A DNA stretch of 41,571 bases from UHGV virus genome UHGV-0131723. One strand, written 5' to 3'. Each line of letters opens with the position of its first letter. The first letter of the stretch is position 1. Below, piece after piece: positions 33,867 to 34,374 of this stretch. The notes below the pieces were generated by a model. The model did no database searches and was not told the origin of the DNA. It saw nothing but the letters and a program-made list of their open reading frames with translations. Source of the stretch: a virus. The translations under genes were made by a program, and so were the position numbers.

Positions 33867-34073
33867 ATTTTGAGAGGGCTATTTAGCCCCTCCCTTAAAG
33901 AGTTCTTACGAGTATTCTTTAAAGGAGCAGAAGACCAAATTCAGCAAGAACGTATGATATTTTCAAGCCAATTTAATTTTGAAAAAATTTAAAACTTGGT
34001 CTGGCTCAACAAATTTACAGAAGACCGTTTACAGCAAAACTTAAACAATCTATTTCTCCGGTAAAGAAAAGGC

Positions 34074-34126
34074 GAAGGTTCGATTCCTTCACTCGGCAGA
34101 TGTCGAGTTGGTGTAATGGTAGCACT
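34074..34126 (+). other. Permuted tRNA halves (3' T-arm/acceptor fragment then 5' acceptor/D-arm fragment)
   Basis: GAAGGTTCGATTCCTTC-ACTCGGC is followed 5 nt later by GTCGAGT-TG-GTGTAATGGTAGCAC; the two acceptor strands are complementary but in reverse gene order. Confidence 0.45.
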
Positions 34127-34298
34127 TAAGATGATAAACAACGGTCTGGTAATTGTCTTTGTAGATAAGTTATTAAGCTTACCTGTGAGTATGCGACCAC
34201 AAAGGGTGAAAGGGTAAATTCTAGATTTAAACCCAAAAAGGCACATCGCTACAGACCTTAAGCAAGTCTGGGTAGCTTATCTACAAAGATAATTTAAT

Positions 34299-34374
34299 GG
34301 AAGTGTAGCAGAATGGTGATGCGGCAGACTTTTAATCTGACAGGCGATGGGTTCGAATCCCTCCACTTCTACCA
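34299..34374 (+). tRNA. tRNA-Lys (UUU)
   Basis: Loop CTTTTAA; T-arm GATGGGTTCGAATCCCTCC; CCA encoded. Confidence 0.7.

What the first reader, a model, noticed from the sequence alone, without database searches (positions are those of the whole stretch)
34040..34300. Permuted tRNA halves inside the tRNA cluster
A canonical T-arm plus 3' acceptor strand (GAAGGTTCGATTCCTTC-ACTCGGC, 34074-34097) is followed 5 nt later by a canonical 5' acceptor plus D-arm (GTCGAGT-TG-GTGTAATGGTAGCAC, 34103-34126). The two acceptor strands are complementary to each other (7 bp with one G-U), but neither fragment has a partner in the normal position, and the next ~170 nt are unassigned. This could be a scar of tandem duplication and deletion, a tRNA disrupted by insertion, or a permuted tRNA-like element.
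Basis: seen in the sequence. Interest (0 to 1): 0.55.

Follow-up and report, generated by a model that had tools for sequence, protein, structure and literature searches.

The report
Phage Y RNA with tRNA-shaped module
The "permuted tRNA halves" are the tRNA-shaped module of a conserved small RNA that most likely partners with a Ro60-like protein encoded just upstream, giving FelixO1-like phages a previously unannotated set of candidate Y RNAs inside their tRNA gene cluster.

Summary
A hairpin (34053-34069), T-arm, loop-capped 7-bp acceptor stem and D-arm form a complete, circularly permuted cloverleaf.

It is not debris. The arrangement is kept in three Ounavirinae genera, and the acceptor stem changes by compensatory substitutions. 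It is not a decoding tRNA either, because the "anticodon" loop is variable and often only 6 nt.

The module sits inside the fourth of four paralogous stem-bulge-stem "frames" (outer helix, AGA/G loop, AGRCCNN/NNGGTCT helix, UWCAGCAA) in the tRNA cluster.

The gene 165 nt upstream of the cluster (31625-33040, Pfam DUF2828+DUF7788) folds as a Ro60 ring plus vWFA domain. Distant phages with this gene carry the same frames, several with permuted tRNA modules.

This matches YrlA-type Y RNAs, described in the literature as circularly permuted tRNAs with closed acceptor stems encoded beside Ro60. Rfam's YrlA model does not match, and the Ro-binding motif differs by one base.

A 2024 preprint noted the Ro60 likeness of the Bas63 ortholog (97% identical, counters Ppl defence) but did not locate the RNAs.

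Verdict: new variant of a known kind. Binding and processing are untested.

The parts
31625..33040 (+). Gene for a 471-aa divergent Ro60 ortholog (helical ring plus vWFA domain with an intact MIDAS motif D279-x-S281-x-S283). It is the proposed protein partner of the RNAs below.
   Evidence: Pfam DUF2828+DUF7788 only; PHROG 850 'RNA-binding protein'. AF2 model pLDDT 87.4, pTM 0.87. Foldseek top 10 PDB hits are all Ro60/TROVE, full length, E 5e-8 to 4e-6, TM 0.51-0.65. MIDAS residues are invariant in 42 homologs. 97.2% identical to Bas63 gp130.
33059..33179 (+). Two sigma-70-like promoter matches between the Ro60-like gene and the first tRNA; candidate start of the tRNA / Y-like RNA transcript.
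   Evidence: 10/12 matches each. These are consensus matches only; the number found in the region is not above shuffled expectation.
33372..33449 (+). Frame 1 (tRNA-Glu | tRNA-Met spacer): TGAC-AGA-AGACCAA-TTACAGCAA...TTGGTCT-G-GTCA. No tRNA-like module.
   Evidence: CM R1 33.5 bits, E about 1e-5.
33538..33603 (+). Frame 2 (tRNA-Met | tRNA-Asn spacer): TTGC-AGA-AGGCCGT-ATTCAGCAA...ACGGTCT-G-GCAA. The G-U pair fits only the + strand read as RNA.
   Evidence: CM R1 44.3 bits, E 2e-8.
33870..33924 (+). Two hairpins that are nearly invariant across three genera, at the 5' end of the Asp-Lys gap. Role unknown.
   Evidence: Alignment A1; fold.
33925..34007 (+). Frame 3: GAGC-AGA-AGACCAA-ATTCAGCAA...TTGGTCT-G-GCTC. 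No tRNA-like module.
34015..34152 (+). Frame 4, the whole candidate YrlA-like Y RNA: TTAC-AGA-AGACCGTT-TACAGCAA...[tRNA-like module]...AACGGTCT-G-GTAA.
   Evidence: CM R1 182 bits (self match). Full-length homologs in L056, L059, L055, L057. 29 of 37 pairs covary.
34053..34069 (+). Hairpin TTTCT-CCGGTAA-AGAAA. It is anticodon-arm-like in sequence and corresponds to the 'V' stem-loop of YrlA. The loop is not conserved.
   Evidence: loop is CCGGTAA, CGGTAA (6 nt), CTGGTAA or CTATGAA; the arm is replaced in Mordin/Michonne.
34074..34090 (+). T-arm GAAGG-TTCGATT-CCTTC.
   Evidence: the T-loop is invariant in 15 distinct Ounavirinae copies; one copy has a single change in the 3' stem strand.
34091..34108 (+). 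Acceptor-stem hairpin: ACTCGGC (3' strand), loop AGAT, GTCGAGT (5' strand). The predicted RNase P site is 5' of G34102.
   Evidence: Three stem versions with compensatory changes. Mordin/Michonne encode G-CCA after the 3' strand.
34109..34125 (+). U8-N9 equivalent (TG) and D-arm GTGT-AATGGTA-GCAC, with A14, G18, G19 and A21 equivalents.
   Evidence: the D-stem pairs never vary and only one D-loop position varies among Ounavirinae.
34156..34289 (+). Long covarying hairpin (TCTTTGTAGATAAG...CTTATCTACAAAGA). Its interior differs between lineages. It contains a minimal frame-like hairpin at 34249-34275 (CTAC-AGAC-CTTAAGCAA-GTCT-GG-GTAG).
   Evidence: GTAG/CTAC changes to GCAG/CTGC, and AGACC/GGTCT changes to AAACC/GGTTT in Sf19.

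Best explanation
The two 'tRNA halves' are the T-arm and D-arm sides of one folded domain. The order is hairpin, T-arm, loop-capped 7-bp acceptor stem, D-arm, which makes it a circularly permuted tRNA mimic. The domain is enclosed by a conserved stem-bulge-stem (frame 4, 34015-34152).

Shown here: the structure is conserved and covaries. The frame has three shorter paralogs in the same tRNA cluster. The gene directly upstream of the cluster folds as Ro60. The same frame, with or without tRNA modules, accompanies that gene in distantly related phages.

Inferred: the RNAs are transcribed with the tRNA operon and released by the enzymes that process the flanking tRNAs. The stem, the purine-rich 5' bulge (C-A/C-GAAG) and the UACAGCAA motif form the binding site for the phage Ro60-like protein. 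The tRNA-shaped module is the effector end, as proposed for YrlA. It could recruit a host factor that recognises the tRNA elbow, or RNase P could cut it at G34102 with trimming and CCA addition, as reported for M. smegmatis YrlA, which also has a 7-bp stem. The resulting RNP would redirect host RNA metabolism or counter a defence system; the Bas63 ortholog of the protein counters Ppl.
For: Anatomy. No intact tRNA.

Conservation in Felixounavirus, Mooglevirus and Suspvirus, with three covarying acceptor-stem versions and encoded CCA in Mordin/Michonne.

The AGAAGRCC and GGTCTGG motifs each occur only four times in 41.5 kb, all paired in the cluster. The outer and inner helices covary between paralogs, and G-U pairs fit only the + strand.

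Wider covariation: 94% of cells paired against 40-47% in slid registers; 29 of 37 pairs changed on both sides; 0 of 500 shuffles reach the observed score.

Ro60 fold of the neighbouring protein. MIDAS motif.

Independent co-occurrence in distant phages (Ro60-like protein 44-53% identical). L056 has five frames, three with permuted modules. L059 has two full-length matches of 68 and 55 bits, starting 265 nt after the gene. L055 (Yersinia phage), L057 (Vibrio phage, with the YrlA-type CCGAAG motif) and L061 have weaker matches. About 100 kb of unrelated viral DNA gave no hit.

Literature: YrlA order is Ro motif, V, T, closed acceptor stem, D, and it is encoded next to Ro60 in bacteria and phages; M. 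smegmatis YrlA with a 7-bp stem is cut by RNase P and gets CCA (PMC4201824). [quoted passage not shown] Bas63 gp130 is Ro60-like, lies upstream of the tRNAs and counters Ppl (PMC11482910); it is 97.2% identical to the window protein and Bas63 has the same frames.
Against: There is no direct evidence that these RNAs accumulate, bind the protein or are cut by RNase P.

The Rfam YrlA model does not match, even in a 186-nt search at E up to 10.

The published Ro-binding motif GNCGAAN0-1G is not present exactly in the window (CAGAAG), and L055 has ACAGGA.

The protein does not hit Pfam TROVE or any PDB sequence; the Ro60 assignment rests on a predicted structure.

Frame 4 is missing in some relatives that keep the protein (SP116, ESCO49, L054), so it is dispensable for them.

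Two of eight distant loci (L060, L062) gave no convincing hit with this model.

The covariation count was made on an alignment fitted to the model.
Confidence: 0.7

Rival explanations
1. The element is a tRNA-shaped processing signal only. The capped cloverleaf and the frames are recognition structures for RNase P, RNase E or RNase III that cut the long tRNA-operon transcript, or they bind some other phage protein. On this view the neighbouring Ro60-like gene is unrelated to them.
For: The frames lie exactly in tRNA spacers. The 7-bp acceptor stem with T- and D-arms is a plausible RNase P substrate (PMC4201824). Binding to the Ro60-like protein is untested. Frame 4 is dispensable in some lineages.
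Against: Most tRNAs in the cluster are only 1-9 nt apart and need no such spacer structures. The frame core is conserved in sequence, not just shape, across paralogs and across phages whose Ro60-like proteins are only 44-53% identical, and it tracks that gene. The 5' motif in the Vibrio phage copy equals the published Ro-binding motif.
Confidence: 0.17
2. The element is a non-functional scar of a tandem tRNA duplication followed by deletions.
For: The hairpin before the T-arm looks like a tRNA-Thr(GGU) anticodon arm (CUGGUAA in Sf19/SUSP1). The two acceptor strands would come from two copies of one tRNA. Tandem tRNAs are the rule in this cluster.
Against: The arrangement is kept in three genera and more than 200 records. 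Compensatory substitutions maintain the capped acceptor stem. The T- and D-arms vary less than the surrounding sequence. Analogous modules occur next to the same gene in distant phages. A dimeric-tRNA origin is compatible with present function.
Confidence: 0.04
3. The element is a true permuted tRNA gene. The precursor is circularised or ligated and then opened by RNase P and 3' trimming to give a working tRNA-Thr(GGU), as in the red alga Cyanidioschyzon.
For: All four arms are present and the joined sequence folds as a cloverleaf. Mordin/Michonne encode CCA. One annotation pipeline calls tRNA-Thr(GGT) here.
Against: The anticodon loop is 6 nt in many phages, changes from GGU to AUG in L029, has C33 in the window, and the arm is lost in the Mordin type. 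There is no bulge-helix-bulge motif at the junction. The junction is flanked by about 20 nt and 13 nt of conserved non-tRNA sequence inside a 12-bp frame helix. The cluster already has tRNA-Thr(UGU).
Confidence: 0.03
4. The element is a two-piece (permuted) tmRNA-like RNA, or the exons of a permuted group I intron that would yield a circular RNA.
For: The gene order T-arm / 3' acceptor, then 5' acceptor, is that of permuted tmRNA genes. The flanks are structured.
Against: ARAGORN, which detects permuted tmRNA, finds nothing. The Rfam tmRNA, permuted-tmRNA and group I models do not match here. Pair 3:70 is C-G rather than the alanine-identity G-U. No conserved tag reading frame exists, since the downstream interior is replaced between lineages. 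The base before the 3' piece is A, not the terminal G a group I intron needs.
Confidence: 0.02

Closest known systems
YrlA-type bacterial and phage Y RNAs (Chen et al. 2014, PMC4201824; Wang et al. 2018, bioRxiv 10.1101/312249; Rfam RF02553)
   Same: Encoded beside a Ro60 ortholog. A stem formed by the 5' and 3' parts of the RNA carries a purine-rich 5'-strand motif at a bulge. The effector module is a circularly permuted tRNA mimic in the order V hairpin, T-arm, loop-closed acceptor stem, UA/UG, D-arm, with the D- and T-loop nucleotides that build the tRNA elbow. Several Y RNAs occur per locus, some without a full tRNA module (like YrlB). The 7-bp acceptor stem matches M. smegmatis YrlA, which RNase P cleaves.
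   Different: No match to the Rfam YrlA model. The motif is CAGAAG rather than GNCGAAN0-1G. There is an extra strongly conserved UWCAGCAA element directly after the 5' strand of the stem. The genes are embedded as spacers in a 25-tRNA operon rather than being free-standing. The partner protein is so divergent that Pfam files it as DUF2828/DUF7788 rather than TROVE. The V hairpin still looks like an anticodon arm.
Thermus phage phiLo Ro60 with Yrl1/Yrl2 (PMC12135203; PDB 9KOP, 9L5Y)
   Same: A phage-encoded Ro60 with phage-encoded Y-like RNAs next to the gene. The RNAs have a stem-bulge-stem with a CGAA-type motif. The phiLo Ro60 structure is among the top structural matches of the window protein.
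   Different: In the passages I read, the phiLo Yrls are described as simple stem-bulge-stem RNAs upstream of the gene, with no tRNA module or tRNA operon mentioned. Here there are four to five copies downstream, inside a tRNA cluster, and one has a full tRNA mimic.
Permuted tRNA genes of Cyanidioschyzon merolae and permuted (two-piece) tmRNA genes
   Same: The 3' part (T-arm and 3' acceptor strand) is encoded upstream of the 5' part (5' acceptor strand and D-arm), separated by a short linker.
   Different: Those yield a functional decoding tRNA, or an alanine-charged tmRNA with a tag ORF. Here the anticodon loop is not conserved, there is no BHB motif, no G3-U70 pair and no tag ORF.
Dictyostelium Class I RNAs (Rfam RF01414; PMC7919456)
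   Same: About 60 nt, many copies. A short covarying stem joins the ends, the motif (CC)UUACAGCAA lies directly 3' of the 5' stem strand, the remainder is variable and A/U-rich, and the 3' strand is followed by CUG. This is the best Rfam match of frames 1 and 2, aligned over the whole model.
   Different: Scores are 17.8-21.5 bits against a threshold of 41.5. The organisms are unrelated, the known binding protein is an RRM protein, and no Ro60 link has been reported. It may be coincidence or convergence.

Membership tests
YrlA-type Y RNA | Gene lies next to a Ro60 (TROVE + vWFA) ortholog | tested here: met
   ORF 31625-33040 ends 165 nt before the tRNA cluster, and frame 4 lies about 1 kb downstream on the same strand. 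The Ro60 fold is supported by Foldseek. The same adjacency is seen in L056 and L059.
YrlA-type Y RNA | tRNA-like module in the order V stem-loop, T-arm, closed acceptor stem-loop, D-arm | tested here: met
   order as described in PMC4201824 and bioRxiv 10.1101/312249.
YrlA-type Y RNA | Conserved D- and T-loop nucleotides that form the tRNA elbow, and the U-purine linker between acceptor stem and D-arm | tested here: met
   The T-loop TTCGATT is invariant. The D-loop AATGGNA has A14, G18, G19 and A21 equivalents. The linker is TG or TA. Judged by sequence only; no 3D test.
YrlA-type Y RNA | Ro-binding motif GNCGAAN0-1G near the 5' end | tested here: inconclusive
   The window frames have (G/T)NCAGAAG, one base off. 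Vibrio phage L057 has ACCGAAG, which fits apart from the first G. L055 has ACAGGA.
YrlA-type Y RNA | Match to the Rfam covariance model RF02553 at its gathering score | tested here: not met
   No YrlA hit on frame 4 at E up to 10 in 5.4-kb and 186-nt searches.
YrlA-type Y RNA | Physical association with Ro60, and modification by TruB/DusA | not testable with these tools
   Needs immunoprecipitation, gel-shift assays and modification mapping.
Ro60 / TROVE protein family (for the neighbouring gene) | Helical-repeat ring plus C-terminal vWFA domain with a MIDAS motif | tested here: met
   Full-length Foldseek matches to 2I91, 1YVR, 1YVP, 9NFA, 9L5Y and 9KOP. D279-x-S281-x-S283, T349 and D381 are invariant.
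Ro60 / TROVE protein family (for the neighbouring gene) | Sequence-level match to Pfam TROVE or to solved Ro60 sequences | tested here: not met
   Pfam gives only DUF2828 and DUF7788. phmmer and a profile search against PDB sequences find no Ro60.
Permuted tRNA gene (Cyanidioschyzon type) | 3' half encoded upstream of the 5' half of one tRNA | tested here: met
Permuted tRNA gene (Cyanidioschyzon type) | Conserved functional 7-nt anticodon loop, and a bulge-helix-bulge motif at the junction for endonuclease/ligase maturation | tested here: not met
   Loop length and anticodon vary. The junction is enclosed by a 4+8-bp helix with a 3-nt/1-nt internal loop, not a BHB.
Two-piece (permuted) tmRNA | G3-U70 alanine identity pair, a tag reading frame, and detection by ARAGORN or Rfam | tested here: not met
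   Pair 3:70 is C-G. The downstream interior is not conserved. No tmRNA call at this site.
Dictyostelium Class I RNA (RF01414) | Score at or above the gathering threshold; short terminal stem plus 11-nt motif | tested here: not met
   17.8-21.5 bits against 41.5. The architecture and the UUACAGCAA part of the motif are shared.

The most novel reading that the evidence does not exclude
The stem-bulge plus UUACAGCAA module may be an ancient recognition element for the DUF2828-type branch of the Ro60 family, shared between these phage RNAs and the Class I RNAs of dictyostelid amoebae. Those are abundant ~60-nt RNAs of unknown mechanism, with the same stem, the same motif in the same place and a CUG 3' end. 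If so, Class I RNAs would be Y-RNA-like partners of a Ro60-like protein, and the phage system would be a tractable model for them. One of the four proteins pulled down with a Class I RNA (DDB_G0281243) has no assigned function (bioRxiv 10.1101/2020.04.05.026054), and I could not determine its family here.
Probability: 0.1. Interest if true: 0.85.

Novelty: new variant of a known kind. Interest (0 to 1): 0.64.

Why it matters
[quoted passage not shown] This work points instead to specific unannotated RNAs in the spacers of the tRNA cluster: four frames, one carrying a complete tRNA mimic. That makes the idea directly testable in a phage where the Ro60-like protein already has a phenotype (it counters the Ppl defence).

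**A wider family.** It extends Ro60/Y RNA systems to a large, sequence-divergent protein family. More than 2,000 homologs were found, in FelixO1-like, Yersinia, Vibrio T4-like and uncultured large phages, and current RNA family models miss the RNAs.

**A view of how tRNA mimics arise.** Frame 4 still carries an anticodon-type arm and a 7-bp acceptor stem, so it is an unusually transparent example of a tRNA mimic derived from a tRNA dimer.

**Annotation fixes.** Short 'hypothetical proteins' and a 131-nt 'tRNA-Thr' placed over this region in several phage records are probably artefacts.

Tried and rejected
- **Known RNA families:** Rfam scans of the cluster and of narrow sub-regions gave no known ribozyme, intron, tmRNA or YrlA at the site.
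- **Permuted group I intron (circular exon product):** rejected. No Rfam match, and no terminal G before the 3' piece.
- **Two-piece tmRNA:** rejected (see the rival explanations).
- **Hairpin ribozyme and K-turn readings of the AGA/G loop:** considered by eye and dropped, because the strands do not fit the consensus. This rests on my own knowledge and was not tested.
- **Degenerate 5'-motif scan of IMG/VR:** it gave 13 single matches. That is about what I estimated for chance from an assumed collection size, and none had a GGTCTGG partner.
- **Crude automatic stem finder:** it mis-paired frames with tRNA T-arms, so I replaced it with direct inspection and a covariance model.
- **Protein-coding reading of the gap:** ORFs of 33-85 aa exist on both strands, but relatives differ by a 1-nt loop indel and by -2/+4-nt loop differences, which would break the frames.
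- **Foldseek against AFDB50** (to look for a Dictyostelium DUF2828 protein): the library was unavailable.
- **Literature searches for DUF2828 and DDB_G0281243:** uninformative.
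Full report
**The observation**

The window is a FelixO1-like myovirus (Felixounavirus). The finding region matches more than 250 phage records, mostly at 95-99% identity. ARAGORN finds 25 tRNAs between 33206 and 38360 and leaves 33867-34298 unassigned.

| Element | Coordinates |
|---|---|
| T-arm | 34074-34090 |
| 3' acceptor strand ACTCGGC | 34091-34097 |
| Loop AGAT | 34098-34101 |
| 5' acceptor strand GTCGAGT | 34102-34108 (not 34103) |
| TG | 34109-34110 |
| D-arm | 34111-34125 |

Directly 5' of the T-arm lie a 5-bp/7-nt hairpin (34053-34069) and a 4-nt connector. 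All four cloverleaf arms are therefore present in the order hairpin, T, acceptor 3' | acceptor 5', D. The joined sequence folds as a cloverleaf. Rfam sees only a partial tRNA here, below threshold.

**It is neither debris nor a decoding tRNA**

The whole ~430-nt tRNA-Asp to tRNA-Lys interval aligns across Felixounavirus, Mooglevirus and Suspvirus. The acceptor stem exists in three versions related by compensatory changes:

- ACTCGGC/GTCGAGT (window)
- ACACGTT/GGCGTGT (Sf19, KMM4, SUSP1)
- ACCCTTC/GAAGGGT (Mordin, Michonne, where the 3' strand is followed by G-CCA)

In 15 distinct copies this helix is 99% paired and 3 of 7 pairs change on both sides. No shuffle out of 500 reaches the observed covariation score, and slid registers give 41-50% pairing.

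The T-loop and the D-stem are invariant; one copy has a single change in the T-stem and one D-loop position varies. The 'anticodon' loop, by contrast, reads CCGGTAA, CGGTAA (6 nt, in many phages), CTGGTAA or CTATGAA, and the arm is replaced in the Mordin type.

Selection therefore acts on the acceptor, T and D 'top half', not on decoding. The short ORFs over the region (annotated in Bas63) are not credible, because relatives differ by frame-breaking indels.

**The enclosing frame and its paralogs**

AGAAGRCC and GGTCTGG each occur exactly four times in the 41.5-kb window, all in the tRNA cluster. They pair up into four 'frames':

| Frame | Coordinates |
|---|---|
| F1 | 33372-33449 |
| F2 | 33538-33603 |
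| F3 | 33925-34007 |
| F4 | 34015-34152 |

Each frame has:

- an outer 4-5-bp helix that differs between copies but stays complementary (TGAC/GTCA, TTGC/GCAA, GAGC/GCTC, TTAC/GTAA)
- an internal loop of AGA on the 5' strand opposite G on the 3' strand
- an inner helix AGRCCNN(N)/(N)NNGGTCT whose variable bases covary
- the motif UWCAGCAA
- a variable insert

G-U pairs (AGGCC/GGTCT) fit only the + strand read as RNA. F1 and F2 fill the tRNA-Glu|Met and Met|Asn spacers. F4 encloses the permuted tRNA module. All Ounavirinae loci examined keep this series, although some lineages have lost F4 (SP116, ESCO49, L054).

Downstream of F4, 34156-34289 is a long covarying hairpin whose interior differs between lineages. 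It contains a minimal frame-like hairpin at 34249-34275, with an AGACC/GGTCT to AAACC/GGTTT compensatory change in Sf19.

**The neighbouring gene**

The ORF at 31625-33040 ends 165 nt before the first tRNA. Pfam files it as DUF2828+DUF7788, PHROGs as 'RNA-binding protein', and some records as 'vWFA protein'. It has no sequence-level match to solved structures.

An AlphaFold2 model built from 42 homologs (pLDDT 87, pTM 0.87) has as its ten best Foldseek matches in the PDB only Ro60 proteins, all aligned over the full length. These are Xenopus and human Ro60, Thermus phage phiLo Ro60 and its TROVE-domain crystal structure, at E 5e-8 to 4e-6 and TM 0.51-0.65. Lower hits match only the vWFA domain. 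The MIDAS residues are invariant.

**The link to Y RNAs**

Bacterial and phage YrlA RNAs are encoded next to Ro60. They consist of a stem with a Ro-binding motif plus a tRNA-like module in the order V, T, closed acceptor stem, D (PMC4201824). [quoted passage not shown] M. smegmatis YrlA, which has a 7-bp acceptor stem, is cleaved by RNase P and receives CCA (PMC4201824).

F4 has this anatomy, including a 7-bp stem, and in the Mordin type an encoded CCA.

**Independent co-occurrence**

I fetched eight distant homologs of the protein (44-63% identical) with their genomic context.

| Locus | Source | Result |
|---|---|---|
| L056 | 143-kb contig | Five frames in the 690 nt between the gene and the first tRNA. 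Layout: outer helix, 1-3-nt 5' bulge, inner helix mostly AGAAGNN/NNCTTCT, then TACAGCAA. Three enclose permuted tRNA modules with 7-9-bp capped stems. |
| L055 | Yersinia phage P778 | Frames TGC-ACA-GGAYTNN-TWCAGCAA...A-GCA; one has a hairpin, a T-arm and a capped stem. |
| L057 | Vibrio phage phi-pp2 | One copy whose 5' motif is CCGAAG, which fits the published Ro-binding consensus apart from its first G. |
| L054 | uncultured phage contig (Ro60-like protein 63% identical) | Frames 1-3 only. |

A covariance model trained only on Ounavirinae F4 gives these scores:

| Target | Bits |
|---|---|
| L059, two tandem copies starting 265 nt after the gene | 68 and 55 |
| L056, two copies | 62 and 50 |
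| L055 | 38 |
| L057 | 32.5 |
| L061 | 30 |
| Short frames without a tRNA module | 33-44 |
| Ordinary tRNA dimers | about 20 |
| About 100 kb of unrelated viral DNA | no hit at E up to 1 |

L060 and L062 gave no convincing hit.

On the model-guided alignment of 18 matches, 94% of cells pair against 40-47% in slid registers. Twenty-nine of 37 pairs change on both sides, including all 7 acceptor pairs, all 4 outer-helix pairs and 7 of 8 inner-helix pairs. No shuffle out of 500 reaches the observed values. The caveat is that this alignment was fitted to the model.

**What is already known**

The PhageMaP preprint (PMC11482910) reported that Bas63 gp130 is structurally Ro60-like, lies upstream of the tRNA genes and counters the Ppl defence system. 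It speculated that some annotated tRNA genes might be Y RNAs.

Bas63 gp130 is 97.2% identical to the window protein, and Bas63 has the same four frames; its F4 differs from the window's at only one flanking base. The candidates identified here are in unannotated spacers, not among the annotated tRNAs. I found no paper describing them. Rfam's YrlA model does not detect them.

**Mechanism**

Shown:

- a conserved, covarying, circularly permuted tRNA mimic inside a repeated stem-bulge-stem RNA
- a Ro60-fold protein gene next to it
- co-occurrence of the two across divergent phages

Inferred:

- co-transcription with the tRNA operon (promoter-like sites at 33059 and 33150) and release by tRNA-processing enzymes
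- binding of the frame to the Ro60-like protein
- use of the tRNA-shaped end either as bait for a host factor that recognises the tRNA elbow, or as an RNase P/CCA substrate
- a role in RNA turnover or counter-defence

None of these inferred steps is tested.

**Verdict**

The element is best described as a new variant of the YrlA-type Y RNA family. It is part of an array of Y-like RNAs associated with a divergent phage Ro60.

Noticed in passing
window 33380-33445 and 33546-33599 (frames 1 and 2); also 34023-34148: Among 4,227 Rfam families, the best match of the short frames is Dictyostelium Class I RNA (RF01414), at 17.8-21.5 bits against a threshold of 41.5. The alignment runs end to end: stem, UUACAGCAA, A/U-rich loop, stem, CUG. 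Class I RNAs have no known mechanism. One of their four pulled-down proteins (DDB_G0281243) has no assigned function.
   Followed up: partly
window 34156-34289: A long hairpin with a covarying basal stem. Its interior (about 34180-34245) is a different sequence in the window lineage than in tootiki, Mooglevirus and Suspvirus. Its apex region holds a minimal frame-like hairpin (34249-34275) with a UUAAGCAA/UUUAGCAA loop.
   Followed up: partly
window 33870-33924: Two hairpins that are almost invariant across three genera, more conserved than the neighbouring tRNA genes. The second ends in AAAGGAG. No function assigned.
   Followed up: no
window 34781-34859: Rfam scores a tRNA here (31.7 bits, above the threshold of 29) that ARAGORN did not call. 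REP5 and Bas63 annotate a tRNA-Arg(TCT/AGA) between tRNA-Ile and tRNA-Ser, which looks like the same place, so the cluster probably has 26 tRNAs.
   Followed up: partly
window 34533-34780: This gap after tRNA-Ile holds the best sigma-70-like promoter match of the region (TTGACA-17-TATAGT, 34548-34576), plus weak sub-threshold tmRNA-type Rfam hits (34475-34658, 34590-34779).
   Followed up: no
window 31172-31543: A 123-aa DUF5681 protein with a basic, glycine-rich N-terminus sits immediately upstream of the Ro60-like gene. The same pair of genes is adjacent in L054 and L055 but not in L056 or L057.
   Followed up: no
L058 (Bas63, MZ501086) 32748-33022; L001 (REP5) 708-838: Public records annotate two tiny minus-strand 'hypothetical proteins' (Bas63) and a 131-nt 'tRNA-Thr(GGT)' (REP5) over frame 4 and the hairpin. 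Both are probably annotation artefacts.
   Followed up: yes
L061 4356-5438 and 2510-2899; L062 15978-17096; L058 10554-11249: RNA-repair-type genes lie in the same genomes as, or close to, the Ro60-like gene: RNA ligases in L061 and L062, a peptidyl-tRNA hydrolase in L061, and a polynucleotide kinase in Bas63. This recalls the bacterial rsr-yrlBA-rtcBA grouping.
   Followed up: no
L059 5817-5891 and 7231-7305: The distant phage contig L059 carries a tRNA with CUA anticodon (amber suppressor type, labelled Pyl by ARAGORN) and a tRNA-like gene with a 2-nt 'anticodon', both just upstream of its Ro60-like gene.
   Followed up: no
L061 6698-6810: In this frame-4-type match, the T-arm and D-arm are separated by only a few nucleotides, so the acceptor stem is almost absent. 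This suggests the capped stem's length is free to vary, as reported for YrlA.
   Followed up: no
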